64,000 bases of DNA, from sequence record NC_055721.1, one strand, 5' to 3'. The translations under genes and the position numbers were made by a program. Source of the stretch: Escherichia phage EcS1. Shown piece after piece: positions 27,232 to 47,623 of this stretch. How positions within the stretch are numbered: the first letter of the stretch is position 1; every line of letters starts with the position of its first letter. The notes under the pieces are model-generated. The model made no database searches. It had not been told where the DNA came from and saw only the letters and a list, made by a program, of their open reading frames with translations.

Positions 27232-27576
27232 TTAGTCCCACATCATCTGGGCGACGCCTTTTTCGTACTTACGAGCAGCAATTTCGTCCCAGTTGTAGTC
27301 GGTACCATTTTTCAACGAACTTTTTATTTCCATTTTATGCATATTACGAGGAATAGGCATTGAATATTGAGACCAACGAAGAGTTTTCCAAAAGGAATCA
27401 CGATGGCGTTCTTTCTGAAGCTTCTCAGCTTGAGCAGGCATTTCTAAATTATCTTCAATGTAACGTTTAATGCAATAAGAATCTTTACGTACATGATAGA
27501 AGATATTTGTGTTCTGGTCATTCCACTTTGAAGATGTAGTGCAATGCCAGCCTTTACGACGGATAGTTCTTGACAT
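27232..27576 (-). CDS. hypothetical protein
   Basis: 114-aa ORF. Confidence 0.45.
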   Translation of the reverse strand: MSRTIRRKGWHCTTSSKWNDQNTNIFYHVRKDSYCIKRYIEDNLEMPAQAEKLQKERHRDSFWKTLRWSQYSMPIPRNMHKMEIKSSLKNGTDYNWDEIAARKYEKGVAQMMWD

Positions 27577-27912
27577 ATTAACCTCTGAGTTTACATTAAA
27601 GTAGCTCAGTGGTAATAGAATCCTGATTTAAACATTAGCTGTTCCTTACGATTTCTACAACTATCATAATCATTGCTAGAAAACCCATAGCAGCATAATC
27701 ACTTGTACCAAGTGCAATAAGCGATAGGATAAGCATAGCAATGGAATAGATAATCATATTAACCTCTGTCAATTATTTCATAGATTTCATTTAGCGAATC
27801 ATTACCGTCTCGAGCTATAATAAGTTCTTCAAGACTGATTTCTTTTTCACCACAACCTAACTGTACAAAATGTTCTTTTAAGAGAGAACGTAAAGCTTCT
27901 AGAGCTTCTTGT

Positions 27913-28506
27913 TTAGTTTGTACTGTCATACATACCTACTTTATCACACCAATGTTTTCTGCACAATGAAACATACTTATCATTACCACCCATTACTACT
28001 TGGGCTCCATCAATAACAGCATTACCTTCTTCATCGAGACGAGCTACCATTGTTGCTTTACGTCCGCAATGACAGACACCTTTAAGTTCTACTAACTTAT
28101 CGGCTACGGCTAACAATGCTTTAGAACCTTCGAACAGATCGCCACGGAAGTCAGTTCTGAGCCCGTAAGCCATCACAGGGACATCATATAAATCAACAAT
28201 ACGACACAGTTGGAACACCTGTTCAGCCATTAAGAACTGTGCTTCATCAATCAGAACACAATGAATATCTCGTTGAGCTTGAGCCCATTTAAAGAATTCA
28301 AGGATGTCCATATCACGTGTGATAATGTTAGCTTCTTGACGAAGACCAATGCGAGAAACAACTTCAGAGGCCGAATCACGATCATCTAAAGCAGGTTTCA
28401 TTACTAGCGTACCCATACCACGTTCTTTGTAGTTATGAGCTACCGAAAGAAGCGCAGTACTTTTACCAGCGTTCATTGATGCAAAATTAAAATAAAGTTG
28501 AGCCAT
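27913..28506 (-). CDS. tk: thymidine kinase
   Basis: 197 aa; P-loop NAGKST, C-terminal Zn-binding cysteines; T4 tk position. Confidence 0.9.
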   Translation of the reverse strand: MAQLYFNFASMNAGKSTALLSVAHNYKERGMGTLVMKPALDDRDSASEVVSRIGLRQEANIITRDMDILEFFKWAQAQRDIHCVLIDEAQFLMAEQVFQLCRIVDLYDVPVMAYGLRTDFRGDLFEGSKALLAVADKLVELKGVCHCGRKATMVARLDEEGNAVIDGAQVVMGGNDKYVSLCRKHWCDKVGMYDSTN

Positions 28507-28718
28507 TATTTAGGTTCCTTTGATTCAATCCATTCAGGGGTAGTTTGAAAGAACCCTTCACCAGCATGGTTTTTGCAGGTCTTATTGGAACAATACAACC
28601 ACCAGTCCCATTCGCTATAAGGTAGTTGATTAAACATACCGTCATTACATAAAGTGAATACAATAGGCCAATGACAATCTTTACAACGACATTTATCTTT
28701 TGTATGAGCTTGTGGCAT
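28506..28718 (-). CDS. Cys-rich small protein
   Basis: 70 aa with CxCxxC and further cysteines; ATGA overlap with tk. Confidence 0.4.
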   Translation of the reverse strand: MPQAHTKDKCRCKDCHWPIVFTLCNDGMFNQLPYSEWDWWLYCSNKTCKNHAGEGFFQTTPEWIESKEPK

Positions 28719-28918
28719 TATAGTTTACCTACTTCACATCCAGCTGGAGGAGTCCAAAAATTCTCTTGGACAAAGTCAATTAAAGCCTGACGTTGAAAAT
28801 CAGCTTCAGTTTCGCGAGTTCGCCATTCCATATCTGAAATTTCTGAATCGCAATTAGCTTCTTCTGCTGCACGAGCTGCATCTTCGAAACGCTTTAATAC
28901 TGCAAAGAATTCTTTCAT
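28718..28918 (-). CDS. hypothetical protein
   Basis: 66-aa ORF. Confidence 0.35.
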   Translation of the reverse strand: MKEFFAVLKRFEDAARAAEEANCDSEISDMEWRTRETEADFQRQALIDFVQENFWTPPAGCEVGKL

Positions 28919-29093
28919 TCTGATATACTCTCAAGAAATTGGTTTAATGCGAATTGAGCATTATTTTTGTATTCAAGGGCTTTATCATACCCATCCATAT
29001 CACCTTGTGAAGACTCATAACAAAGGTCTCCTTCGGCTTCTACAACATCAGCGACTAAATCAAGAATAACTCGAACATGTTCTTTAGTAATCA

Positions 29094-29291
29094 TTATACA
29101 CCTATTACGTCAAGAAGCTCTTTATACACAGAAGCTAATTCATCAGCGGATTCTTTAACTAATTGACTAGGCCCTTCCATTGATTGATACTGATGGTCTT
29201 TAGCTGCATCAATTAGTCGATCAATAACTTCACAAATCATAGCATGTTCTTCATCAGATCGTGTGCTCATATCCATTGGACCCTTAAACAA
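29094..29291 (-). CDS. hypothetical protein
   Basis: 65-aa ORF. Confidence 0.3.
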   Translation of the reverse strand: MFKGPMDMSTRSDEEHAMICEVIDRLIDAAKDHQYQSMEGPSQLVKESADELASVYKELLDVIGV

Positions 29292-29447
29292 AATTCTTCA
29301 ATATGTTGTGTTCGTTTCTTTTTATCAATATAATTATATTCGATAAAAGTGCCAAGATATTCTTTTTCTTGAACTTTAGAAATAATAGGACAACGAGTTT
29401 TGCGGACTTCTTGCCATTGTCTAATTATTGTTGCTTTATTTTTTGGA

Positions 29448-29939
29448 TCAAATGGGTGTGGATAGTGTATTTTCATTAGGAGCCCAATCAACAATAACCA
29501 CGTCAATATTAGGTGTGAACATATTGATTAATGCTTCAACTTTAGTCCAATCACCACCTGCAATACCACATCCAATACGAGGCATATAGATTTGAGGAAT
29601 ACAAATCTGATTCTCGGCCCATTTGTTCAATTCTATCAAAGAATCTACTAATGCACCATAGCGTAAATCAGGCCCAGCATAATATTGAGTATAAAGATTA
29701 AAGCAAATATTTTCTTGCTTATTGAAGCGAGTGCTTAATACGGCTTTAGTAAAGGTACCAAGTTTTCGGATATCAGCAAAATCTGTATCTTTGTCAATAG
29801 CTTCAATAGGATAATAAGCTTTAGCTAATTGACCCGCTATGCCACCACCCATTGTATGGAAACAGTTACAGCCATGAGCGATATTTTTACCTGAAAGAAA
29901 CAAGGCGACGATGTCGCCTTTAATATATTTTGTAATCAT
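29448..29939 (-). CDS. macro-domain protein (ADP-ribose binding/processing)
   Basis: 163 aa; glycine-rich macro-type motifs HGCNCFHTMGGGIAGQL and RIGCGIAGGDW. Confidence 0.6.
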   Translation of the reverse strand: MITKYIKGDIVALFLSGKNIAHGCNCFHTMGGGIAGQLAKAYYPIEAIDKDTDFADIRKLGTFTKAVLSTRFNKQENICFNLYTQYYAGPDLRYGALVDSLIELNKWAENQICIPQIYMPRIGCGIAGGDWTKVEALINMFTPNIDVVIVDWAPNENTLSTPI

Positions 29940-30289
29940 CTTTTACTCAATCCACGGTTATAAGAATCAACTAATCTATCTACCATTGAAGCACACATAT
30001 CTTTATAATGTGCTTGTGCTGGTATACATTCTAGCGTCATCAATCGACCTTCATATCGACGAATTAGCGTATCGTTTTTAAAACGAGACTTACTATCCCT
30101 TTCGCCATCTTTATATGAAGACATCATTTGTAAAGAAAAACCATTGATGCAGTCGATATTAGTAGGAGAACAGTAATCCTTCGCTGTTCGCGTAACATAT
30201 TCTAATACCTCAGTCGGTTCAGTCGACTGTTCTGCATGGACTCCCAGACCCACGGTTAACCCAAGGATTAGAACTGTTTGTTTTAGCAT
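29936..30289 (-). CDS. secreted or periplasmic protein
   Basis: 117 aa; signal-peptide-like N-terminus MLKQTVLILGLTVGLGVHA. Confidence 0.4.
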   Translation of the reverse strand: MLKQTVLILGLTVGLGVHAEQSTEPTEVLEYVTRTAKDYCSPTNIDCINGFSLQMMSSYKDGERDSKSRFKNDTLIRRYEGRLMTLECIPAQAHYKDMCASMVDRLVDSYNRGLSKR

Positions 30290-30837
30290 TATTCCACCGT
30301 TTGATGTAACATCTTATTTGATTTAAGATAGTTCGCTTTAGATAGAACATCAGAAGCATATTTGTTTCCGGCCTTTACTGCCCAACCTGCATTATAACTA
30401 GACAGAGCCTTACGCATATCACCTTTATGAATTTCAAGCCAATAGCTTAATTCAATATATGCCCATGCTGCAGAATTTTCTCTACTCTTGACCATTCGAA
30501 TAATTTCACGGTCAGACATGTTGTAGCCTAATTGCTTAGTACGACTACGTAACGTTGGAAGATAATTCTGAAACATTCCATACGCATGATGTTCTTTCGA
30601 CTTTTTTGTAAGAACTCCAGCAGAAGATTCTTGCCAAGCCAAACCGGCCATAATATACCCAAGGCCATTATTATTGTATCGAGCGTTGTGCTCTTTGAAC
30701 TTACCCGACTTCTGATATTGTTCACCAAAAGCATACGCGAATTGTAAATTATCGAGTTGTTCATTACTGAAGTTAGGCGTAGACCCATGGGCCATAGAAC
30801 TAATAGCCAATAGAACTACTGCTATTGCTTTTTTCAT
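30289..30837 (-). CDS. lytic transglycosylase (SLT domain) with signal peptide
   Basis: start set to internal ATG at 30835-30837 (MKKAIAVVLLAISSMAHG); SLT motifs WQESS, YGMFQ, SYNAG. Confidence 0.7.
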   Translation of the reverse strand: MKKAIAVVLLAISSMAHGSTPNFSNEQLDNLQFAYAFGEQYQKSGKFKEHNARYNNNGLGYIMAGLAWQESSAGVLTKKSKEHHAYGMFQNYLPTLRSRTKQLGYNMSDREIIRMVKSRENSAAWAYIELSYWLEIHKGDMRKALSSYNAGWAVKAGNKYASDVLSKANYLKSNKMLHQTVE

Positions 30838-30847
30838 GATTTCTCTC

Positions 30848-31306
30848 TTATAGGTCAATAACTTTTGTGCTAATTTTTCCTTCAAGACGTTTGTTGTTGA
30901 TGAATGCCATACGACATGTGAGCCCATAAGAGCTAGCCGTTTGACCTTTGTCTACTGTCATACCAAGCCACAAGTTGCGGTCAGTAATTTCGAGACGGAG
31001 TGGACGATATTCTACACCAGGAAGAATATGATCTTCAATATCAGGCAATGGTTTCAGACGTAGATATTCTACGACATCAACCACTTTTCTGTGAAGTTTA
31101 TGGAACAAGTTGAACACATAAGTTTCGTCGATTTCACGTTGGATAGCACGGTCCAATAGATGAGGTGAATACTTAAGGTGAAAAACTTCTTTTATACCAT
31201 ATTCTTTACAGGCCTTTTTAAGTTCAGCATTGATTGAGTTAAACTCCGTTTCAAAGATACGACGGAGTTTGTTACGACGGATATAAACACTAGAATCAAT
31301 AGACAT
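30848..31306 (-). CDS. regB: endoribonuclease RegB
   Basis: 152 aa; blocks matching T4 RegB as recalled (FIRRNKLRR, HLKYS.HLLDRAIQREIDETYVF, GVEYRP.RLEITD.NLWLG). Confidence 0.85.
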   Translation of the reverse strand: MSIDSSVYIRRNKLRRIFETEFNSINAELKKACKEYGIKEVFHLKYSPHLLDRAIQREIDETYVFNLFHKLHRKVVDVVEYLRLKPLPDIEDHILPGVEYRPLRLEITDRNLWLGMTVDKGQTASSYGLTCRMAFINNKRLEGKISTKVIDL

Positions 31307-31361
31307 TTTCTTCTCCTTTGTTTGTGTAAGGTCATCTTAACACATCCTTAGGAGAAGTAAA

Positions 31362-31634
31362 CTAGTAAGATTCTACTGGTTGGAATACTGCACGACAGGC
31401 CCACATGCTTGCTTCTTTCAGACGTTCTTTAGCAGTAGAAACTTGGTGCACACGGTCCATAAGATCATCTAAGACCTTAACATCTTCATTATATGCTTTA
31501 GAGTATTGATCAGAGAGTTCAGTTTCAATTTCAGTAAACAATGCACCTAACTCAACTTCAAGAGATTTGATACGATTTACAGTTTCGATCTTTTTATTGG
31601 TATGAGGCTTATAGCCTTTGATGTCTTCAATCAT
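31362..31634 (-). CDS. hypothetical protein
   Basis: trimmed ORF. Confidence 0.35.
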   Translation of the reverse strand: MIEDIKGYKPHTNKKIETVNRIKSLEVELGALFTEIETELSDQYSKAYNEDVKVLDDLMDRVHQVSTAKERLKEASMWACRAVFQPVESY

Positions 31635-31878
31635 AATGAATTTCCTCATTAGTTTCTTTATCATATTCAACAAGTTCAATAGGTTCTAAGTGACCATAAC
31701 CTCTGGTACCGAGATAACTATTGCTATCTTCATATGTCATGGTTTTAGGATTCCAGCCTGAATCAGCCCAAGCTTCCATTAAACCTTGTTCACCTGAATT
31801 ACTGAACCAGCTACAGAATTCAGCTATTGCTTTTTCACTACCCTTTATAATAACTTGCGCCATGTAGGCTCCATACAA
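31627..31878 (-). CDS. hypothetical protein
   Basis: 83-aa ORF. Confidence 0.35.
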   Translation of the reverse strand: MYGAYMAQVIIKGSEKAIAEFCSWFSNSGEQGLMEAWADSGWNPKTMTYEDSNSYLGTRGYGHLEPIELVEYDKETNEEIHYD

Positions 31879-32183
31879 ATGATTCGTTGGTCATAAGTGA
31901 TAAGACTTGATGTTCTAAGTCCGTCGAGTTTGCCGCCTAAAAATACGACAGAAAAATGTGGATGCTTATTCATCAAACTCACATCAGGAGATGTACATAA
32001 AAATCGTTGACCTTTAAAAGGTCCTGACATGAATCGATACATTTTATAATCTAATACATCAATTGAATGAAGTATCTTAAAGAAGACTTTTTGATCGGTC
32101 TGCTTTGAAGCCGTCATAAAATCAATGTATTCGGAAATGGTCATGCCTAGAGCATTCATAGCTTTTAAAAACGAAGTTTTCAT
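31845..32183 (-). CDS. hypothetical protein
   Basis: 112-aa ORF. Confidence 0.4.
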   Translation of the reverse strand: MKTSFLKAMNALGMTISEYIDFMTASKQTDQKVFFKILHSIDVLDYKMYRFMSGPFKGQRFLCTSPDVSLMNKHPHFSVVFLGGKLDGLRTSSLITYDQRIICMEPTWRKLL

Positions 32184-33884: not shown

Positions 33885-34172
33885 CTACTTCTTAGAGTAA
33901 TCACTCATTAGTTTAACTATGTCACCAAGTTTCTTGTTGAACAGATAATCTACTTCTTTACCTGCTTTGTTAACAATCTGCCATTGGCCATCGCCTTTGT
34001 TACCGAAAGTGTAGTCGCCAACTTTAAATGAGTAGCCGCCTACTTTTTTAACAGGAGTTACTTCAAAGCCAAGTTTTTTAGCTTGGAAAGTTACACGACG
34101 CAGAGTGTCGTCCATTTCGCTTTCAGTTAGTGGTTGGGTATAAGTTTCAAGGTAAGATTCTAGTAAAGTCAT
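33885..34172 (-). CDS. hypothetical protein
   Basis: trimmed ORF between e and denV. Confidence 0.4.
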
Positions 34173-34657
34173 TCGTATGCACCCCAAGTGCCAGTTTTAA
34201 AAGTAGAGATAACACGCTTAGCGCGATTAGGTGTCTGATTATACCATCGGGATTTAGATAAATTAACTGCTGCTTCATCCCAACGTTTTTCTTTAAGCAT
34301 ACGCATAGAATTCGTAAATCCTGCGACGCCTGCAACACCCATTTGGAAGACCATATTAATCAGTGCAGCACGACGAACACCATCCAGAACATCATATACA
34401 GGCTTCAGAACTGAGTTGCCTAAGATGCCTCGAGTTGCCTTTTCAACATCTTTATTAAAGATGCTTTCAGCTTCGGCTTGACTGAGCTGACCGTTACAGT
34501 CGCGTCCAACAAGTTTATTAAGTTCAGTTTTAGCAATATCAAGAGATGGTTCTTTGGTCAAAAGATGACCGATACCAATTGTGTAATACCCTTCGGTATC
34601 TTTATAAATTTTAGAATCGTATCCTTCATCGATACGAAGCATTCCGAAAATATCCAT
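34169..34657 (-). CDS. e: lysozyme (endolysin e)
   Basis: 162 aa; near-identity blocks to T4 lysozyme as recalled ([46 protein letters not shown]). Confidence 0.9.
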
Positions 34658-34695: not shown

Positions 34696-35208
34696 TTACT
34701 TCCAGTTAGCTTCATGGATTTCCTTTCCGTAAAGCTTCTGCATTACATTGTAAAGAGATGGGCCCATTACGTAGTTCCACATACGAGGTTGGATAAAAGC
34801 AAATGCATCTAGTTCCGGGAAACTGACGCCGTCTTCACCAGTGTGTTGAGCTGTACAAACACAACCCTTGAAGTCCTCGACTTCGACAGCAAATGGATAG
34901 ACAAACAAATGAATATCTTTATTGGGCGCGTAGTCGTGTCGTCCTAGGTCCACTAGGGCTCCAGGATTGTACTTCTCGAAACTGGTTTCTTCTGTACATT
35001 CACGGACTGCAGCTTGAAGAACAGTTTCGCCTTCTTCAACATGTCCTTTAGGAATGTCCCAACGATGACCCTTGCCTGCTAGTCCCGAACCCGTAACGCG
35101 TCCCATGAATAAATGGTGTTCTTTTGTGAAGAACAAAATACCTGCTGATAATTCTTTTACTTTAGTCATTAAAGTCGTCCCCGAGCCATGATAGGCTATA
35201 GATTTCAC
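34696..35208 (-). CDS. nudE: Nudix hydrolase
   Basis: 170 aa; Nudix box GHVEEGETVLQAAVRECTEETS; T4 nudE position upstream of e. Confidence 0.75.
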   Translation of the reverse strand: MKSIAYHGSGTTLMTKVKELSAGILFFTKEHHLFMGRVTGSGLAGKGHRWDIPKGHVEEGETVLQAAVRECTEETSFEKYNPGALVDLGRHDYAPNKDIHLFVYPFAVEVEDFKGCVCTAQHTGEDGVSFPELDAFAFIQPRMWNYVMGPSLYNVMQKLYGKEIHEANWK

Positions 35209-40119: not shown

Positions 40120-40195
40120 TGGTGCTGAATGCAGGAATCGAACCCGCGACCTTCTCATTACAAGTGAGCTGCTCTACCTACTGAGCTAATTCAGC
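40120..40195 (-). tRNA. tRNA-Thr (anticodon UGU)
   Basis: 76 nt; perfect 7-bp acceptor stem, canonical D and T arms (TTCGATT), anticodon loop CTTGTAA, encoded CCA. Confidence 0.8.
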
Positions 40196-40199
40196 AATT

Positions 40200-40284
40200 T
40201 GGTGCATCGAGAGGGATTCGAACCCTCAATCCTCGCGGCGTGGCATTTTAAGTGCCATGTGTATACCAGTTCCACCATCGATGC
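40200..40284 (-). tRNA. tRNA-Leu (anticodon UAA)
   Basis: 85 nt class-II tRNA; anticodon arm TGGCA-CTTAAAA-TGCCA, T loop TTCGAAT, CCA encoded. Confidence 0.8.
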
Positions 40285-40288
40285 GAAT

Positions 40289-40364
40289 TGGTCGAGACAG
40301 TAGGGATCGAACCTACGACCTAGGACTTAGAAGGTCCTTGCTCTTCCGTCTGAGCTATGCCCCG
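40289..40364 (-). tRNA. tRNA-Arg (anticodon UCU)
   Basis: 76 nt; anticodon arm AGGAC-CTTCTAA-GTCCT, T loop TTCGATC, CCA encoded. Confidence 0.75.
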
Positions 40365-40537
40365 TCTTTGTATAAACGTTCTAAGTAAACATGCTCCATC
40401 GGTTTAACGATTTCGCCTTGTTTCAATAATTGTGTTTGAATAGGATTCAAATTATAAAATTTGATCACATCTCTGAGATCTTGTTCGCTATAATTAAAAG
40501 TTCCTACTTCTACTCCGATTTGCATAAGTATCCTTTT

Positions 40538-40624
40538 TGGAGCTAGGAGTGAGATTCGAACTCACGAAAGCATAACGCTACTGGATTTGCAATCCAGCGC
40601 CTTTGACCACTCGGCAATCCTAGC
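40538..40624 (-). tRNA. class-II tRNA with anticodon GCA (Ser/Tyr-type architecture, Cys anticodon)
   Basis: 87 nt; perfect acceptor stem GCTAGGA/TCCTAGC, D arm GCC-GAGTGGTCAAA-GGC, anticodon arm CTGGA-TTGCAAA-TCCAG, long variable arm, T loop TTCGAAT, CCA. Confidence 0.65.
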
Positions 40625-40755
40625 AAATGTTCAGGTGGGAGTCGAACCCACACGATTGAAGCCTCTCATCGGGTTACCTCTTACTCAGCTGGGTGCTTAA
40701 ACCAGCGTTTCAAACAGAGTCCGCCAACATGTCTACCGATTCCATCACTGAACAA
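40625..40755 (-). ncRNA. tRNA-like structured RNA, about 130 nt (possible stable-RNA analogue)
   Basis: canonical T arm GTGGG-TTCGACT-CCCAC and 7-bp acceptor pairing, but the ends are about 130 nt apart and no standard anticodon arm was found. Confidence 0.3.
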
Positions 40756-40758
40756 TTT

Positions 40759-40983
40759 TTACATATCTACTTGACAAAACCAGTTCATTTCAAAATATTC
40801 ATCAAAATGTAATGCAGGTTCTACTTGACAATTTTCTTCTAATAAGACCAAATTTCTTCTAACAATAGGGTCTAATGACGTGATGGTCAAAGCACTATCA
40901 TGATAGTAAATCAGAACACGAAGCGAATCTGTATCAACTAAATACCGAACATTCATATCAGGATGTTTGTAGAGGTTAATCAT
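40759..40983 (-). CDS. hypothetical protein
   Basis: 74-aa ORF. Confidence 0.35.
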   Translation of the reverse strand: MINLYKHPDMNVRYLVDTDSLRVLIYYHDSALTITSLDPIVRRNLVLLEENCQVEPALHFDEYFEMNWFCQVDM

Positions 40984-40989
40984 AACATT

Positions 40990-41436
40990 TTATCCTTGAA
41001 GCATTTCACGAACACGATAAAGATTAGAACAGAATTCTTGTTCAGTTAGAACAGTTTCATTCTTTTTATTCTTACCCATGCTATGAGTTAATGTTGAGTT
41101 ACGCGTAGCTAGGAGTGCTCTCTTGAATCCTTCATTCAAAGCCAGAGAATCATATGCTCGCTGAATTAAAGACGTATAGGCTATACTTTGACGTAAAATA
41201 GGGACACCTTTCCAGTACAACGTTTGGGTGCGCCACCAGTTCTTTTTCTTACCTTTGAACTTAGCTTTCTTACCAACTAATGTACAGACATGCTCTTGCA
41301 TTTCTACTGAAGAAAACTTCAATGATTGCAAGAAACCTTCCATTGATGCACACTGTACTCCATCAATTTCGAAAGCATGAGGAGCAAAGTTACTTAATGC
41401 ACAACTTGGGTACATTGAACCTGAACCAATATCCAT
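40990..41436 (-). CDS. NADAR (YbiA-like) domain protein
   Basis: 148 aa; SNFAPHAFEIDG...SMEGFLQSLKF, KRALLATRN, NLYRVREML align with remembered YbiA/NADAR blocks. Confidence 0.7.
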   Translation of the reverse strand: MDIGSGSMYPSCALSNFAPHAFEIDGVQCASMEGFLQSLKFSSVEMQEHVCTLVGKKAKFKGKKKNWWRTQTLYWKGVPILRQSIAYTSLIQRAYDSLALNEGFKRALLATRNSTLTHSMGKNKKNETVLTEQEFCSNLYRVREMLQG

Positions 41437-41527
41437 TATCCATTATTCCTTTGATGATAATAACAGCGTTTACATCGATACCAACCGAAATAATCTTTGT
41501 AGATTATTCTATTGCAGTTGGGACATT

Positions 41528-41782
41528 TCATGCTGGTTCTACCTCAGTCATTGTTGTCCGTTTCAGAACCACACAACCTTCTATTTCAGGGTCTTTCTTA
41601 ACCAGAACTCGTCCAGTAGGCGAAATAAGGCCAGTAATATGATTCAGAGCTTTAGCAGCATCATTGAAGCCATCAGCTTGCATAATCGTTCCGAATGAGA
41701 ACCCTTGATAGTGATTACTAAACTCGTAATAAGCGTATTCTTCACGAATAGGGCAATAAATCACATAATCAACATTCAGCAT
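41528..41782 (-). CDS. hypothetical protein
   Basis: 84-aa ORF. Confidence 0.35.
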   Translation of the reverse strand: MLNVDYVIYCPIREEYAYYEFSNHYQGFSFGTIMQADGFNDAAKALNHITGLISPTGRVLVKKDPEIEGCVVLKRTTMTEVEPA

Positions 41783-42114
41783 AAGTCACCTACACATTGG
41801 AGAGCACGATGGTGTGACCATATTTCTAAAGTCTTTTCGTTGGCTTTATTAATTCGACGAAGGTCATTTAAATTACCTTTAACATATAACCCAAGTTCAC
41901 TTAACAAATGATCGATAGTGAAATAAGAAATATCTCGCAGTGGAGCATAACGGAACTTAATGAAGTGCCATTCATCAAACTCGTTTTTGGTAAACGCATA
42001 ATCAGCATGCATCATGAGTTCGCGAATCGTTTCACGCATCAAAAAGACATTACCGTGATAAGAATCATTTATAGCAACAATATGTGGACCTACACCTAGA
42101 TAGATACGAGACAT
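41776..42114 (-). CDS. hypothetical protein
   Basis: 112-aa ORF. Confidence 0.45.
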   Translation of the reverse strand: MSRIYLGVGPHIVAINDSYHGNVFLMRETIRELMMHADYAFTKNEFDEWHFIKFRYAPLRDISYFTIDHLLSELGLYVKGNLNDLRRINKANEKTLEIWSHHRALQCVGDLC

Positions 42115-42324
42115 AATATTTTCCTCAGTCAGTTTATTCTACATCATATTCAACTACAAGCACTTCTTCATAATCTTCAGGATTAAGAGTTTTAATGTAG
42201 TCTTCTGCTTTTTCTTTACTCGATAGAATCTTTAATGGCTTTGAATATTCATCATATCCATATTCACAGTTAAACTCTGACATAACAACTGCGTATACTA
42301 TCATAATATTTTCCTCATTTGAAT

Positions 42325-42401
42325 TGGTGGCCCTTGTCGGAGTCTAACCGACCTTACACCAGTTATGAGCTGGGCACTTTCACACGAAAGTATAAAGGGC
42401 C
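42325..42401 (-). tRNA. tRNA-like element with CAU anticodon (Met or Ile2), atypical T loop
   Basis: 77 nt; perfect acceptor GGCCCTT/AAGGGCC, anticodon loop CTCATAA, T arm GTCGG-TTAGACT-CCGAC, CCA encoded; 5' end overlaps a terminator hairpin. Confidence 0.5.
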
Positions 42402-42434
42402 ATTATTAAAATATTTTTACTTTAATAATGGCCC
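42397..42434 (-). terminator. rho-independent terminator (14-bp perfect inverted repeat)
   Basis: GGGCCATTATTAAA ... TTTAATAATGGCCC with 10-nt loop; on minus strand followed by TTTATAC; downstream of 42459..42743. Confidence 0.55.
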
Positions 42435-42458
42435 TCTCCGAAGAGAGGACAGAGGGTA

Positions 42459-42743
42459 TTACTTACACATGAACTTAGCAACTTCATCGAAGCTGTTCAA
42501 GATGTAATAAGACTTAGGCGCACTGTATTCAGTAGGTTTAATAGTAATACGTACACGACCATGCAAGTCTTCAACTAATCCAACAACAGCACTTGAACGA
42601 ACAACAGCACGAGCAGTTGTAGGAATCTGACCGGTAGTCAGAGCTTGAAGTTCGGTGTCAATAAGGATTACAATACGTTCAGACATTTTAATTTCCATTT
42701 GTTGTTTCGATGTAGTAATAATAACATGATTATTTTGAAGCAT
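42459..42743 (-). CDS. hypothetical protein
   Basis: 94-aa ORF downstream of promoter copy 4. Confidence 0.4.
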   Translation of the reverse strand: MLQNNHVIITTSKQQMEIKMSERIVILIDTELQALTTGQIPTTARAVVRSSAVVGLVEDLHGRVRITIKPTEYSAPKSYYILNSFDEVAKFMCK

Positions 42744-42750
42744 AACCGTT
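42703..42750 (-). promoter_or_regulatory. early-type promoter-like element (repeat copy 4)
   Basis: minus strand ATGCTTCA...TGtTATTATTACT...CATCGAAACAA. Confidence 0.45.
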
Positions 42751-42801
42751 CAGAGACTAAAAAGCCCAGTACAAGATTTCTCTTGCCCGGGCGTCATTAT
42801 T

Positions 42802-42876
42802 TGGAGCAGCATATCGGACTCGAACCGATGTCGACTGGGTGGAAGCCAGTAATATTAACCACTATACGAATGCTGC
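42802..42876 (-). tRNA. tRNA-Gly (anticodon UCC)
   Basis: 75 nt; anticodon arm ACTGG-CTTCCAC-CCAGT, T arm ATCGG-TTCGAGT-CCGAT, CCA. Confidence 0.75.
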
Positions 42877-42877
42877 A

Positions 42878-42951
42878 TGGCAGGCCCTGTAGGAATCGAA
42901 CCCACGTCGCTGAGGTTGGAGCTCAGAATGATACCACTATACCAAGGACCC
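42878..42951 (-). tRNA. tRNA-Trp (anticodon CCA)
   Basis: 74 nt; anticodon arm CTGAG-CTCCAAC-CTCAG, T loop TTCGATT; D stem weak. Confidence 0.6.
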
Positions 42952-43262
42952 GTTGATTGTACGGAACGCCTGGATTCGAACCAGGTTACAAAGCAGTTGA
43001 CGCTCCTTTGTATTTTGTAAGGCCATCATCTCGACCATATCCGAACGTTTCGTCAAAAACGCTACTCGGCTTATGGCAAAGACAAATCCTCGAACCGATA
43101 ATTGGTGGGAGCTGTTGGTAACGATCCAACCTCTCGAGCTCTTCAGGCAAGCGCTAATCCGTCTCAGCTAAACTCCCAGATCCACAAGAACTTTACAAGC
43201 ATTGCGCTTAACCTTTTCAGGAAGTTAGGGTACTATTTCTAGTCTGTGGTTATCCCTATTTT
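42952..43262 (-). ncRNA. structured non-coding region inside tRNA cluster (tRNA-like fragments)
   Basis: contains a canonical T arm CCTGG-TTCGAAT-CCAGG at about 42967-42985 and several hairpins but no complete cloverleaf was found by eye. Confidence 0.25.
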
Positions 43263-43338
43263 TGGTGGGAATAGCTGGATTTGAACCAGCGACCTATCGC
43301 TTATCGGGCGAGTGCTCTACCAACTGAGCTATATTCCC
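43263..43338 (-). tRNA. tRNA-Ile (anticodon GAU)
   Basis: 76 nt; GGGAATA acceptor, GCTCAGTTGGTAGAGC D arm, anticodon loop CCGATAA, T loop TTCAAAT, CCA. Confidence 0.8.
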
Positions 43339-43344
43339 ATAATT

Positions 43345-43421
43345 TGGTCTCCATATAAGGATTTGAACCTTAGACCTCCTGGCCCCAAACCAGGCGCTCT
43401 ACCAAACTGAGCTACACGGAG
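43345..43421 (-). tRNA. tRNA-Pro (anticodon UGG)
   Basis: 77 nt; anticodon arm CCTGG-TTTGGGG-CCAGG, T loop TTCAAAT, CCA. Confidence 0.75.
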
Positions 43422-43422
43422 A

Positions 43423-43668
43423 TTAATTTATATCAAATATGGTGCCATCTTTCCACATCATTGCGAAAAGAGGTGAAACTTTTGTTAAACGGTGTGCAAC
43501 TTTAACTTGACGGCTAAAACCTTCAATTTGAGCACCATAACCATTTATATCTAATACAAGACCAATATGAACTTTGCCAATATCAGACATACCATTTGAA
43601 GGTAATCCAATCATGACATAATCGTTAACTTCGATTTGTTTACCATATTTGTCAAATAATATCTTCAT
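43423..43668 (-). CDS. hypothetical protein embedded in tRNA cluster
   Basis: 81-aa ORF between tRNA-Pro and tRNA-Ser. Confidence 0.35.
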   Translation of the reverse strand: MKILFDKYGKQIEVNDYVMIGLPSNGMSDIGKVHIGLVLDINGYGAQIEGFSRQVKVAHRLTKVSPLFAMMWKDGTIFDIN

Positions 43669-43693
43669 AATTATTTATTCACCATATTTTAAT

Positions 43694-43787
43694 TGGAGGA
43701 AGCTGTGAGATTTGAACTCACGGAACCTGTCCCCAGGACCTCTAGTTTTCAAGACTAGTGCAATAAACCAGACTCTGCCAAGCTTCC
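43694..43787 (-). tRNA. tRNA-Ser (anticodon UGA)
   Basis: 94 nt class-II; anticodon arm CTAGT-CTTGAAA-ACTAG, long variable arm, T loop TTCAAAT, CCA. Confidence 0.75.
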
Positions 43788-43791
43788 GAAT

Positions 43792-43867
43792 TGGGGTGAC
43801 CTGTGGAATTCGAATCCACGACTACGAGAATCACAATCTCGAGTTCTACCAACTGAACTAAGGCCAC
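43792..43867 (-). tRNA. tRNA-His (anticodon GUG)
   Basis: 76 nt; anticodon arm CGAGA-TTGTGAT-TCTCG, T loop TTCGAAT, discriminator C, CCA. Confidence 0.7.
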
Positions 43868-43967
43868 ATCAATATTCACTCAGCCACTTCGTGCGGACCT
43901 GTCTCGATATTACGTGTAGTGGATTAGCTAGTTCACACCACTATATCGTCTAGAATGAATATTAATT

Positions 43968-44043
43968 TGGCTAGAGCGCTTGGATTCGAACCAAGGAATA
44001 CCAGAATCAAAATCTGGTGTCGTAACCGCTTGACTACGCTCTA
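43968..44043 (-). tRNA. tRNA-Gln (anticodon UUG)
   Basis: 76 nt; anticodon arm CCAGA-TTTTGAT-TCTGG, T loop TTCGAAT, CCA. Confidence 0.75.
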
Positions 44044-44045
44044 AT

Positions 44046-44121
44046 TGGAGGCGAGTGATGGAATCGAACCATCGCGTAAAGGGATATGAACCCTTTATTC
44101 TACCACTGAAGTTAACTCGCT
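44046..44121 (-). tRNA. tRNA-Met (anticodon CAU), initiator-like
   Basis: 76 nt; anticodon stem ends in three consecutive G-C pairs (AAGGG/CCCTT), loop TTCATAT, position 1-72 unpaired (A-C), CCA. Confidence 0.65.
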
Positions 44122-44248
44122 ATTGTCCGGGTTCTCGAAGTAAAAACAAGTAGCTTGATGTAGAACACATAAAGTGGGAACAACTCACTTCATCTCCTAG
44201 CATTATTGTATGGAGACTCAAACTCATCTTCAAGAACTGCTTCGTATT

Positions 44249-44325
44249 TGGCGGACGTGCTTGGACTCGAACCAAGGACCTATCGCTTAACAGGCGACCG
44301 CTCTAACCAACTGAGCTACACATCC
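44249..44325 (-). tRNA. tRNA-Asn (anticodon GUU)
   Basis: 77 nt; anticodon loop CTGTTAA, T loop TTCGAGT, CCA. Confidence 0.75.
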
Positions 44326-44329
44326 AAAA

Positions 44330-44461
44330 TTTACTTTCAGGGTTACTCGAAGCTCTCAAACCTTCCGGAAAGTCGAATAAGCATCTCATCCTCTCAGAAT
44401 CCCGTGCACAGGAAAAATCTTTATTAGGAGGAGACTAAATCAATATAACCCTGAAAGTAAA
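44330..44461. repeat. 16-bp perfect inverted repeat flanking a 100-nt spacer
   Basis: TTTACTTTCAGGGTTA at 44330-44345 and TAACCCTGAAAGTAAA at 44446-44461. Confidence 0.8.
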
Positions 44462-44475
44462 CTTACTTTCGAATT

Positions 44476-44552
44476 TGGTGGGACATCATGGACTCGAACC
44501 ATGGACACCCGGATTAAAAGTCCGGTGCTCTAACCAACTGAGCTAATATCCC
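44476..44552 (-). tRNA. tRNA-Lys (anticodon UUU)
   Basis: 77 nt; anticodon arm CCGGA-CTTTTAA-TCCGG, T loop TTCGAGT, CCA. Confidence 0.8.
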
Positions 44553-45015
44553 ATAGATATTTATCTATAAATCTCTTAGCTTGAGTATGACTTATATTTA
44601 AACTTTTACTAAACTTGGTTAATGCACCTCGTTTAGTAAAATCTATTAAATTATAAGCTTCAATTCTAGAAGCAATTTCTTCTTCAGACAAAACCAAAGC
44701 ATGGTTTTCTGAAATCTTTTTACGAGATTCTGTTGTATGTGACATACCAGTAAAACCAAGAGTAGGTTTTAGTCTACCATTAGCTTTAGCGTCTTGTGCA
44801 TTTTGTTTATTTGTCGCACAATAAATGTTTTCTAATGAATAAGGACCTATATCGCCTTTACGACACATGCAATAATCCAAACTTGCTTTACCACGTAAAT
44901 GATATTTACCTGTTGATTTCCACCAAGTAAACCACTCATCAAAAGTTAGATTAAATTCAATACCACGAGCTTTGGCATGAACTTTTTGCATACGGTACTT
45001 TTCATAATCTTCCAT
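44530..45015 (-). CDS. homing-endonuclease-like protein (NUMOD3-like motif, C-terminal DNA-binding region)
   Basis: start set to ATG at 45013-45015 (MEDYEKY...); GFTGMSHTTESRKKISENH resembles NUMOD3; 3' end reads through the 5' part of tRNA-Lys. Confidence 0.4.
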   Translation of the reverse strand: MEDYEKYRMQKVHAKARGIEFNLTFDEWFTWWKSTGKYHLRGKASLDYCMCRKGDIGPYSLENIYCATNKQNAQDAKANGRLKPTLGFTGMSHTTESRKKISENHALVLSEEEIASRIEAYNLIDFTKRGALTKFSKSLNISHTQAKRFIDKYLWDISSVG

Positions 45016-45030
45016 ACAACTCTCACAAAT

Positions 45031-45106
45031 TGGCAGTGCCGACGGGATTCGAACCCGCATGGTCTCCCGTGACAGGGGAGTATATTACCAAGTCTACCAC
45101 GGCACT
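45031..45106 (-). tRNA. tRNA-Asp (anticodon GUC)
   Basis: 76 nt; anticodon arm CTCCC-CTGTCAC-GGGAG, T loop TTCGAAT, CCA. Confidence 0.75.
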
Positions 45107-45112
45107 ATTGTT

Positions 45113-45187
45113 TGGTACTCTGTAGGAGAATTGAACTCCTCTTCCCAGGTTGAAAACCTGGTGTCCTAACCGATAGACGAACAGAGC
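45113..45187 (-). tRNA. tRNA-Glu (anticodon UUC)
   Basis: 75 nt; D arm TCGTCTATCGGTTAGGACACC, anticodon arm CCAGG-TTTTCAA-CCTGG, CCA. Confidence 0.75.
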
Positions 45188-45195
45188 TAAGAATT

Positions 45196-45284
45196 TGGTG
45201 CACCGAGAAGGACTCGAACCTACGAAGCTCATTACAAGCAGGAGATTTACAGTCTCCACCCTTTGCCACTCGGGTCATCGATGC
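45196..45284 (-). tRNA. tRNA-Tyr (anticodon GUA)
   Basis: about 89 nt class-II; anticodon arm GGAGA-CTGTAAA-TCTCC, long variable arm, T loop TTCGAGT, CCA. Confidence 0.7.
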
Positions 45285-46021: not shown

Positions 46022-46933
<912 letters not shown>

Positions 46934-46934
<1 letters not shown>

Positions 46935-47623
46935 TATATTACCTTTTTAATTTGTTCAAATAGTTGTTCTAAAGTACCAGTGTTCATTATAACACTGTCA
47001 CCAGGAGAAATTGGAAGACCTGCTTCAGTTATGTGCTGGTCTGTATTTTGATCGGTTTCAGGACGAACTACATGAATAATCGTAGCACCCATCGCCCTGA
47101 GCGAATCAATTTCGTGCACTTGACGGACATCAGGAATAACATAATAGTTATAACCTGAATAGAAGTTATCAAGATAGTTTTCTGTAAATAATTTAACCCA
47201 ATACATACGGTCGAGTTTATTAACAATCACATCAGTCCCAAGGGTCTGCATGAGACGACGGATTGTCCATTCCTCTACATTATTATTTAATACAGAAGAA
47301 ATCGCATCTTGGACTTTACTATCATATCGAGTGTATCTGAAATTGAAAACTTCATGAAGGACTTCAATACATTCATGCAGAAGAACACACACATCTTCAT
47401 TGTTTATAGGAAGGACCATTTCACGATCTATGCCAGTTCCTTCCCAATCACAATATAGTAACTGATGTAGTTCATTGATACCAGAGCGTTCCCAGGCACA
47501 CCTAAGAGCATACTTAATAGGCATAGCAAGTTGCCATTTCAAAGAACTAAAATTTTCAGTTATGTAATCAGCCGTAGTATCTTTACCACTACGTTTTTTA
47601 CCCACAATCACTAAGAGTTTCAT
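46934..47623 (-). CDS. 1: deoxynucleoside monophosphate kinase (gp1)
   Basis: 229 aa; N-terminal P-loop VGKKRSGKDTTADYI as recalled for T4 gp1. Confidence 0.8.

What the first reader, a model, noticed from the sequence alone, without database searches (positions are those of the whole stretch)
29448..29939. Macro-domain protein near tk, giving a second ADP-ribose-processing enzyme in the same genome
Glycine-rich macro signatures (HGCNCFHTMGGGIAGQL, RIGCGIAGGDW) in a roughly 160-aa protein. Macro domains hydrolyse ADP-ribose adducts and the DarG antitoxin uses one to reverse thymidine ADP-ribosylation. Together with the NADAR protein this phage may carry two independent reversal activities (guanine-linked and thymine/protein-linked), or may use them to tune T4-type Alt/Mod ADP-ribosyltransferases.
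Basis: partly seen in the sequence, partly recalled or inferred. Interest (0 to 1): 0.6.

Follow-up and report, generated by a model that had tools for sequence, protein, structure and literature searches.

The report
T4 tk.4 (AdfM) macrodomain ortholog

Summary
The ORF at 29448..29939 (minus strand, 163 aa) is real and both quoted motifs are present. It is a macrodomain: it just passes the Pfam Macro threshold, matches PHROG 335 at 5.6e-61, and gives an AlphaFold model (pLDDT 92.5) that matches TARG1, Poa1p, BT1257, SCO6735 and DarG.

It is the ortholog of T4 Tk.4: 52% identity over the full length, with the same rI.-1–tk–tk.3–tk.4–vs–vs.1–regB–denV gene order. A 2025 preprint showed that T4 tk.4 is needed for resistance to DarTG2 and named it AdfM.

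It belongs to the T4 gp30.3/AdfN family, an anti-DarTG1 guanine-ADP-ribose hydrolase, and is intact with its catalytic Glu.

One nuance: the Tk.4 family has an invariant Gln (119/119) where DarG and TARG1 have their catalytic Lys. That resembles SCO6735, a proven thymidine-ADP-ribose DNA hydrolase. It differs from PhiKZ "AdfM", which is DarG-like with Lys. No Tk.4-type protein has been assayed biochemically.

The result is ordinary and of low interest.

The parts
29448..29939 (-). tk.4 / adfM ortholog: a 163-aa single-domain macrodomain protein
   Evidence: ORF. Pfam Macro. PHROG 335 at 5.6e-61. 52% identity to T4 Tk.4, E=3e-62, full length. AF2 pLDDT 92.5. Fold matches TARG1, Poa1p, BT1257, SCO6735 and DarG.
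29826..29876 (-). Residues 22-38, HGCNCFHTMGGGIAGQL. This is the first ADP-ribose-binding loop. H22 and N25 are equivalent to SCO6735 H24 and N27.
   Evidence: H22, G23, N25, C26 and G33 are invariant in 117-119 of 119 homologs. HHalign aligns IAHGCNC with SCO6735 IAHVCND. N27S nearly abolishes SCO6735 activity (PMC9411070).
29685..29699 (-). Residues 81-85, NLYTQ. Q85 occupies the position of the catalytic Lys of DarG (K80) and TARG1 (K84), and of Gln85 of SCO6735.
   Evidence: MAFFT and HHalign agree on this register. Q85 is found in 119/119 homologs, N81 in 119/119 and Y83 in 119/119. SCO6735 Q85A is inactive.
29547..29579 (-). Residues 121-131, RIGCGIAGGDW. This is the glycine-rich diphosphate-binding (PB) loop. 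A127 sits where TARG1 has D125.
   Evidence: Sequence read directly. G123, G125 and W131 are invariant or nearly so. It aligns to PRIGCGLAGG(T/K)W of SCO6735 and BT1257.
29936..30289 (-). vs (valyl-tRNA synthetase modifier) ortholog immediately upstream. Its stop codon overlaps the tk.4 start codon (ATGA), so the two are probably translationally coupled.
   Evidence: 52% identity to T4 Vs. Coordinates.
29267..29476 (-). tk.3 ortholog (DUF7202) immediately downstream. Its likely ATG at 29476 overlaps the tk.4 3' end by 29 nt.
   Evidence: 61% identity to T4 Tk.3 over 29476..29270. Pfam DUF7202 at 2.2e-35.
27913..28506 (-). tk (thymidine kinase), used as a synteny anchor
   Evidence: 71% identity to T4 Tk.
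40990..41436 (-). adfN (gp30.3 family NADAR) ortholog, the partner guanine-ADP-ribose hydrolase. It lies inside the tRNA cluster.
   Evidence: Pfam Phage_30_3 at 1.5e-57. 41% identity to T4 gp30.3, with the catalytic Glu (T4 E36 = window E33) and the full C-terminus conserved. tRNAs flank it.

Best explanation
The ORF encodes the ortholog of phage T4 Tk.4 (AdfM), a stand-alone macrodomain of the ALC1/TARG1-like class. It is probably translated from the same polycistronic message as vs and tk.3. Its most likely role is as an orphan-antitoxin-like enzyme. Host DarT2 toxins of DarTG2 defence systems attach ADP-ribose to thymidine in single-stranded phage DNA, and this enzyme would bind and hydrolyse that adduct so replication can continue. 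It would complement the phage's NADAR protein AdfN at 40990..41436, which removes guanine-linked ADP-ribose placed by DarT1. Catalysis probably does not use the DarG/TARG1 lysine. Instead an invariant Gln85, held by Asn25, would position the distal ribose for water-mediated cleavage, as proposed for SCO6735. Shown here: the fold, the class, orthology, synteny and the active-site residues. Taken from the literature: the T4 knock-out phenotype and the SCO6735 biochemistry. Inferred: that this protein itself has the activity.
For: Orthology: 52% identity to T4 Tk.4 over the full length, E=3e-62. Gene order matches T4 across rI.-1, rI.1, tk, tk.3, tk.4, vs, vs.1, regB, vs.4, vs.7, vs.8 and denV. 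PHROG 335 scores 5.6e-61.

Function of the ortholog: T4 tk.4 was the single significant hit in a transposon screen on DarTG2, and a clean knock-out is sensitised.

Fold and class: AF2 pLDDT 92.5. Foldseek top hits are TARG1, Poa1p, BT1257, SCO6735 and DarG. Profile against PDB gives BT1257 9e-21, TARG1 and SCO6735 6.6e-17, DarG 3.7e-12.

Active site: H22, N25 and Q85 are invariant in 117-119 of 119 homologs. They align to SCO6735 H24, N27 and Q85. SCO6735 cleaves thymidine-ADP-ribose DNA and rescues cells from DarT, Q85A is dead and N27S nearly dead (PMC9411070).

Partner: an intact AdfN ortholog is present. AdfN acts on DarTG1 but not DarTG2.
Against: No Tk.4-type protein has been assayed biochemically. 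The T4 evidence is genetic, comes from a preprint, and its authors write only that enzymatic removal 'seems likely'. Identity to T4 Tk.4 is only 52%, and T4 differs in the diphosphate loop (GAGIGKGNW against GCGIAGGDW). The DarG catalytic Lys is absent. The DNA-binding lysines of SCO6735 (K34, K89) and its longer mobile loop are not conserved. The host of this phage is unknown, as is whether that host carries DarTG2.
Confidence: 0.75

Rival explanations
1. The protein is a broad-range or different-substrate ADP-ribose eraser. Its main substrates would be ADP-ribosylated RNA (uracil-linked), Glu/Asp-linked proteins, or small metabolites such as ADP-ribose-1''-phosphate or O-acetyl-ADP-ribose. 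Protection from DarT2 would then be only one of its activities, or a side activity.
For: Public annotation calls it 'phosphatase' with an A1pp motif, and some sources call it O-acetyl-ADP-ribose deacetylase. Poa1p, an ADP-ribose-1''-phosphatase, is among the best sequence and fold matches. SCO6735, which has the same Gln-type site, also de-modifies Glu/Asp-ADP-ribosylated PARP1 and uracil-ADP-ribosylated RNA (PMC13036486). Comparative genomics proposed that phage Macro domains mostly target soluble ADP-ribose derivatives (PMC9503650).
Against: The only phenotype known for the T4 ortholog is specific to DarTG2. The 'phosphatase' label is an inherited annotation and has not been tested. T4-like phages have no known source of ADP-ribose-1''-phosphate (general knowledge).
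Confidence: 0.13
2. The protein neutralises DarT2 mainly without catalysis. It would bind and inhibit the toxin, or sequester ADP-ribosylated DNA, rather than hydrolyse the adduct.
For: Catalytically dead SCO6735 Q85A, DarG K80A and TARG1 K84A all inhibit DarT in vitro, with SCO6735 the strongest. The other phage anti-DarT factors, AdfA and AdfB, act by binding the toxin. The catalytic Lys is absent here.
Against: All ADP-ribose-binding and SCO6735-type catalytic positions are invariant across 119 diverse homologs. That pattern fits an enzyme better than a binder of rapidly evolving toxins. There is no DarT-binding C-terminal domain like that of DarG (163 aa, single domain).
Confidence: 0.06
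3. The protein reverses or tunes the phage's own ADP-ribosyltransferases (Alt, ModA, ModB).
For: T4-like phages encode these transferases, and a review notes co-expression of early ARTs with NADAR and Macro genes.
Against: alt and mod are not in this window, which starts at about gene 46 by ORF sizes. In T4, alt lies about 60 kb away from tk.4. Alt and Mod make arginine-linked ADP-ribose, which TARG1-class macrodomains are not known to cleave (general knowledge). The T4 tk.4 mutant is non-essential on plain E. coli K-12 and shows a defect only with DarTG2.
Confidence: 0.03

Closest known systems
Phage T4 Tk.4 = AdfM (anti-DarT factor Macrodomain; bioRxiv 10.1101/2025.11.20.689424)
   Same: It is an ortholog. 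Identity is 52% over the full length, it sits in the same slot between tk.3 and vs, it falls in the same PHROG 335, and it has the same H22/N25/Q85 active-site residues.
   Different: It carries an 8-residue longer, disordered C-terminal tail. Its diphosphate loop has the family consensus GCGIAGGDW, whereas T4 has GAGIGKGNW. Function has been tested only for T4, and only genetically.
Streptomyces coelicolor SCO6735 (PDB 5E3B) and Bacteroides BT1257 (2FG1/2AFC)
   Same: It belongs to the same ALC1/TARG1-like class. It has Gln at the catalytic-Lys position, the His-x-x-Asn motif and the PRIGCG(I/L)AGGxW loop. SCO6735 hydrolyses thymidine-ADP-ribose DNA and protects against DarT.
   Different: The mobile loop is 5 residues shorter and lacks K89 and K94. 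K34 is replaced by Gly or Ala. V25 is replaced by an invariant Gly23. Identity is only about 24-28%. This is a phage gene rather than a cellular one.
DarG antitoxin macrodomain (T. aquaticus 5M31/5M3E, M. tuberculosis 5M3I)
   Same: It has the same fold and class, and from the T4 genetics it is inferred to act on the same substrate.
   Different: It has Gln85 instead of catalytic Lys80. It has no C-terminal DarT-binding domain and no adjacent darT. It scores 22 bits against the NCBIfam DarG cut-off of 250.
PhiKZ gp104, also named AdfM (Cell Rep 2026, PMC13309987)
   Same: It is a stand-alone phage macrodomain that counters DarTG2. PhiKZ AdfM was shown biochemically to remove DarT2-made ADP-ribose from DNA.
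   Different: It belongs to a different subfamily. PhiKZ gp104 is DarG-type, with the FPTK lysine, and matches DarG at E=9e-25. It shares only a 37-residue local match (22 bits) with the window protein. One name currently covers two lineages.
Human TARG1/OARD1 (4J5S) and yeast Poa1p (6LFR)
   Same: These are the best Foldseek matches, with TM up to 0.8. TARG1 also cleaves thymine- and uracil-linked ADP-ribose.
   Different: The TARG1 K84/D125 dyad corresponds to Q85/A127 here.

Membership tests
Macro domain (Pfam PF01661) | Profile match at or above the gathering score | tested here: met
   23 bits against a cut-off of 22, E=7.9e-05, covering 116 of 118 profile positions. The margin is small. 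The family profile reaches 9e-21 against PDB macrodomains.
Macro domain (Pfam PF01661) | Three-layer alpha/beta/alpha macro fold | tested here: met
   AF2 pLDDT 92.5 and pTM 0.88. Foldseek probability 1.00 to more than 100 solved macrodomains.
Macro domain (Pfam PF01661) | Glycine-rich ADP-ribose and diphosphate-binding loops | tested here: met
   MGGG at residues 30-33 and GCGIAGG at 123-129. G33, G123 and G125 are invariant or nearly so.
T4 Tk.4 / AdfM (PHROG 335) | Full-length sequence similarity to T4 Tk.4 | tested here: met
   52% identity, E=3e-62, residues 1-154 against 1-153. PHROG 335 at E=5.6e-61.
T4 Tk.4 / AdfM (PHROG 335) | Conserved genomic position between tk.3 and vs | tested here: met
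   T4 annotation. tblastn of T4 neighbours onto the window gives the same order and strand.
T4 Tk.4 / AdfM (PHROG 335) | Required for phage growth on DarTG2 hosts | not testable with these tools
   Shown only for T4.
DarG antitoxin (DarTG2) | NCBIfam NF048014 equivalog score | tested here: not met
   22 bits against a cut-off of 250.
DarG antitoxin (DarTG2) | Catalytic lysine (Taq DarG K80) | tested here: not met
   Gln85 aligns to K80. Gln is present in 119/119 homologs.
DarG antitoxin (DarTG2) | C-terminal DarT-binding domain and an adjacent darT gene | tested here: not met
   The protein is a 163-aa single domain. Its neighbours are vs and tk.3.
SCO6735/BT1257-type (Gln-type ALC1-like macrodomain) | Gln at the TARG1-K84/DarG-K80 position, with equivalents of Asn27 and His24 | tested here: met
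   HHalign aligns NLYTQ to NMIGQ and IAHGCN to IAHVCN. These residues are invariant in the family.
SCO6735/BT1257-type (Gln-type ALC1-like macrodomain) | Elongated mobile loop with K89/K94, and K34, for DNA binding | tested here: not met
   There is a 5-residue gap exactly at the mobile loop. 92 of 119 homologs have the short 8-residue loop. Position 32 is Ala, Gly or Ser.
SCO6735/BT1257-type (Gln-type ALC1-like macrodomain) | Hydrolysis of thymidine-linked ADP-ribose on ssDNA | not testable with these tools
   Shown for SCO6735 itself.
TARG1 | Lys84/Asp125 catalytic dyad | tested here: not met
   Q85 and A127 occupy these positions. The TARG1 sequence used was verified against PDB 2LGR.
Poa1p-type ADP-ribose-1''-phosphatase (source of the 'phosphatase' annotation) | Sequence and fold similarity | tested here: met
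   6LFU at E=9e-8 over residues 4-90. Profile 1e-14. Foldseek 8.6e-9.
Poa1p-type ADP-ribose-1''-phosphatase (source of the 'phosphatase' annotation) | Phosphatase activity and Poa1p catalytic residues | not tested
AdfN / gp30.3 NADAR (partner gene 40990..41436) | Pfam PF08010 match, catalytic Glu (T4 E36) and a complete C-terminus (the RB69 truncation is inactive) | tested here: met
   E=1.5e-57. EGFLQ is conserved and the alignment runs to T4 residue 152 of 152. The criteria come from PMC11825919.

The most novel reading that the evidence does not exclude
Tk.4-type AdfM would be a distinct third active-site solution within the TARG1-like macrodomains: an invariant Gln as in SCO6735, but the short loop of DarG and TARG1 and none of SCO6735's DNA-binding lysines. 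It would have arisen independently of the DarG-type AdfM of PhiKZ. Like SCO6735, it could be a general eraser acting on thymine-ADPr DNA, uracil-ADPr RNA and Glu/Asp-ADPr proteins. That would protect T4-like phages against several host ADP-ribosyltransferase defences, not only DarT2.
Probability: 0.3. Interest if true: 0.45.

Novelty: already known. Interest (0 to 1): 0.2.

Why it matters
The result confirms that this Winklervirus-like T4-type phage carries the published pair of orphan-antitoxin-like counter-defences: AdfM against DarTG2 and AdfN against DarTG1. It adds no new kind of system.

There are two modest added points. First, public records annotate this gene as 'phosphatase' or 'hypothetical protein', which is outdated. 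Second, the name AdfM now covers two separate macrodomain lineages. The Tk.4 type has an invariant Gln. The PhiKZ type has the DarG lysine. Mechanistic conclusions should therefore not be carried from one to the other without biochemistry.

Tried and rejected
(1) The sigma-70 promoter and terminator scan of 27500..32000 found 19 promoter-like sites against 16.1 expected. It is uninformative and was not used.

(2) The only terminator-like hit in the gene is an 8-bp hairpin at 29902..29920, inside the coding 5' end. Its folding z-score is only -1.87. It is recorded as a side note, not as a regulatory element.

(3) The pairwise HMMER alignment to SCO6735 placed SCO6735 Q85 opposite window F80. 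I rejected that register after HHalign put a 5-residue gap exactly at SCO6735's longer mobile loop. MAFFT against DarG and TARG1 and HHalign against DarG agree on Q85.

(4) Filing the protein as DarG was rejected. It scores 22 bits against the 250-bit cut-off on the NCBIfam equivalog, has no catalytic Lys, no DarT-binding domain and no adjacent darT.

It was rerun without that row.

(6) One literature query failed on a term that was too short and was repeated.

(7) A role in Alt/Mod tuning was considered and rejected: those genes are not in the window and their linkage chemistry does not fit.

(8) A Thoeris connection was not tested. No evidence was found for or against it.

Full report
**Observation.** The window has one ORF at 29448..29939 on the minus strand, with an ATG start and 163 aa. 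Thymidine kinase lies about 0.9 kb downstream on the same strand, at 27913..28506, and is 71% identical to T4 Tk.

**Is it a macrodomain?** Yes.
- Pfam Macro (PF01661) is only just passed: 23 bits against a gathering score of 22, E=7.9e-05, though nearly the whole model is covered.
- PHROG 335 ('phosphatase') matches at 5.6e-61.
- Solved structures found by sequence are all macrodomains: BT1257 (2AFC/2FG1, about 1e-8), SCO6735 (5E3B, 7e-8), yeast Poa1p (6LFU, 9e-8), M. tuberculosis DarG (5M3I, 1.4e-3) and human TARG1 (2.6e-3).
- A profile of 58 family members raises these scores to BT1257 9e-21, TARG1 and SCO6735 6.6e-17, Poa1p 1e-14 and DarG 3.7e-12. Coronavirus Mac1 is far behind at 7e-4.
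- An AlphaFold2 model built on 57 sequences has pLDDT 92.5 and pTM 0.88. Only the last five residues are disordered.
- Foldseek against the PDB ranks TARG1, Poa1p, BT1257, SCO6735 and DarG at the top, with probability 1.00 and TM up to 0.8.

The protein therefore belongs to the ALC1/TARG1-like class of macrodomains.

**Which gene is it?**
- tblastn against 50,697 phage records finds matches in 2,692. The best is Erwinia phage Vettismorki (93.6%), followed by other Winklervirus members (Serratia CHI14 and X20, Kosakonia Kc304; 86-87%).
- In JS10, Bp7 and IME08 the matching gene is annotated tk.4.
- At the DNA level the window is only about 80% identical to its nearest relatives. No protein in the 5.8-billion-sequence collection is more than 95% identical. 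So this is a new strain or species of a known genus.
- T4's own tk.4 is annotated 'phosphatase; contains A1pp phosphatase motif'. It is 52% identical over the full length, E=3e-62.
- T4 neighbours map onto the window in the same order and on the same strand: rI.-1, rI.1, tk, tk.3, tk.4, vs, vs.1, regB, vs.4, vs.7, vs.8, denV.
- The vs stop codon overlaps the tk.4 start codon (ATGA at 29936..29939). The tk.4 3' end overlaps the likely tk.3 start. This is typical of a tightly packed T4 early or middle operon.

**What is known about the ortholog?**
- A preprint of November 2025 (bioRxiv 10.1101/2025.11.20.689424) used transposon sequencing of T4. tk.4 was the single significant gene needed on a host expressing DarTG2. 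A clean knock-out confirmed this, and the gene was named adfM, for anti-DarT factor Macrodomain. The authors judge enzymatic removal of ADP-ribose from DNA 'likely' but did not test it.
- Earlier, T4 gp30.3 was shown to be a NADAR enzyme, AdfN. It removes ADP-ribose from DNA and is necessary and sufficient against DarTG1 but not DarTG2. The authors predicted a further anti-DarTG2 factor (PMC11825919).

**The NADAR partner.**
- The window encodes a gp30.3-family protein at 40990..41436 (-). It matches Pfam Phage_30_3 at 1.5e-57 and is 41% identical to T4 AdfN.
- The catalytic Glu (T4 E36) is conserved as E33 in 'EGFLQ'. The C-terminus whose loss inactivates the RB69 allele is complete.

**Mechanistic detail.**
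- DarG and TARG1 use a catalytic lysine (Taq DarG K80, TARG1 K84). TARG1 also uses D125.
- MAFFT and HHalign place the window's Gln85 (NLYTQ) opposite that lysine, and A127 opposite TARG1 D125.
- Among 119 retrieved homologs, Q85 is present in 119, N81 in 119 and Y83 in 119. H22 and N25 are present in all 117 homologs that have a residue at those positions. None has Lys at position 85.
- This is the configuration of SCO6735. There Gln85 replaces the lysine, Q85A abolishes activity and N27S nearly abolishes it. The enzyme efficiently cleaves thymidine-linked ADP-ribose from DNA and protects cells from DarT. A water-mediated, backbone-assisted mechanism was proposed for it (PMC9411070).
- HHalign aligns window H22, N25 and Q85 with SCO6735 H24, N27 and Q85. 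It places a 5-residue gap exactly where SCO6735 has its longer 'mobile loop'.
- The Tk.4 family thus combines the SCO6735-type Gln site with the short loop of DarG and TARG1. It lacks SCO6735's DNA-binding K34 and K89.

**A name clash.**
- A 2026 Cell Reports paper also named PhiKZ gp104 'AdfM' and showed biochemically that it removes DarT2-made ADP-ribose from DNA (PMC13309987).
- Translating the sequence given in that paper shows a DarG-type protein with the FPTK lysine. It matches DarG at 9e-25 and shares only a 22-bit local match with the window protein.
- Two macrodomain lineages therefore carry the same name. The PhiKZ biochemistry cannot simply be transferred to Tk.4-type proteins.

**Rival explanations.**
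- SCO6735 also acts on Glu/Asp-ADP-ribosylated protein and on uracil-ADP-ribosylated RNA. Poa1p, an ADP-ribose-1''-phosphatase, is a close structural relative. A broader or different substrate range therefore remains possible. The 'phosphatase' annotation is inherited and untested.
- Non-catalytic inhibition of DarT is possible, because dead SCO6735, DarG and TARG1 all inhibit DarT in vitro. The strict invariance of the active site across the family argues for an enzyme.
- Tuning of Alt/Mod has no support. Those genes lie outside this window, and from general knowledge they make arginine-linked ADP-ribose.

**Verdict.** It is the ortholog of a gene whose counter-defence role has been published, so it is already known and of low interest. 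What remains open is the biochemistry of the Gln-type Tk.4 active site and its substrate range.

Noticed in passing
window 29902..29920 (minus-strand RNA), inside the 5' end of tk.4: A perfect 8-bp hairpin, AAGGCGAC-ATC-GTCGCCTT, lies 17 nt downstream of the tk.4 start codon. It is identical in phage Vettismorki. T4 keeps an 8-bp stem through synonymous changes (AAA to AAG, TTG to CTT). The folding z-score is only -1.87, and the palindrome may simply reflect the complementary Gly-Asp and Val-Ala codons.
   Followed up: partly
window 40120..45284, with the NADAR gene at 40990..41436: There are seventeen tRNA genes on the minus strand. The adfN/gp30.3 NADAR gene sits inside this cluster, between tRNA-Cys and tRNA-Gly. 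In T4, 30.3 lies next to DNA ligase gene 30, so the gene has a different genomic location in this lineage.
   Followed up: partly
window 34696..35208 (-): This is a Nudix hydrolase (Pfam NUDIX, 1.3e-13) next to lysozyme e at 34169..34657, in the position of T4 e.1. From memory, not checked here, the T4 enzyme hydrolyses ADP-ribose among other substrates. If so, this is a third ADP-ribose-processing enzyme in the window rather than only two.
   Followed up: no
window 46231..46686 (-): This is an anti-CBASS protein Acb1 (T4 57B) ortholog: Pfam Acb1 at 3.5e-58. It sits next to dNMP kinase at 46934..47623. It is another counter-defence gene in the same window.
   Followed up: no
literature; PhiKZ gp104 compared with window 29448..29939: The name 'AdfM' is used for two different macrodomain lineages. 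T4 Tk.4 is Gln-type. PhiKZ gp104 is DarG-type with the catalytic Lys. They share only a 22-bit local match.
   Followed up: yes
window 29936..29939 and 29448..29476: The vs stop codon overlaps the tk.4 start codon (ATGA). The tk.4 3' end overlaps the likely tk.3 ATG at 29476 by 29 nt. That overlap arises from an 8-residue C-terminal extension of tk.4 relative to T4, and the extension is disordered in the model.
   Followed up: partly
window 30289..30927 (-), vs.1 ortholog: The ORF as listed is 212 aa and overlaps the regB ORF (30848..31306) by 80 nt. T4 Vs.1 is 181 aa and aligns only from 30837, so the real start is probably an internal ATG. There is a weak, sub-threshold Pfam SLT (lytic transglycosylase) match at E=0.0056.
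   Followed up: no
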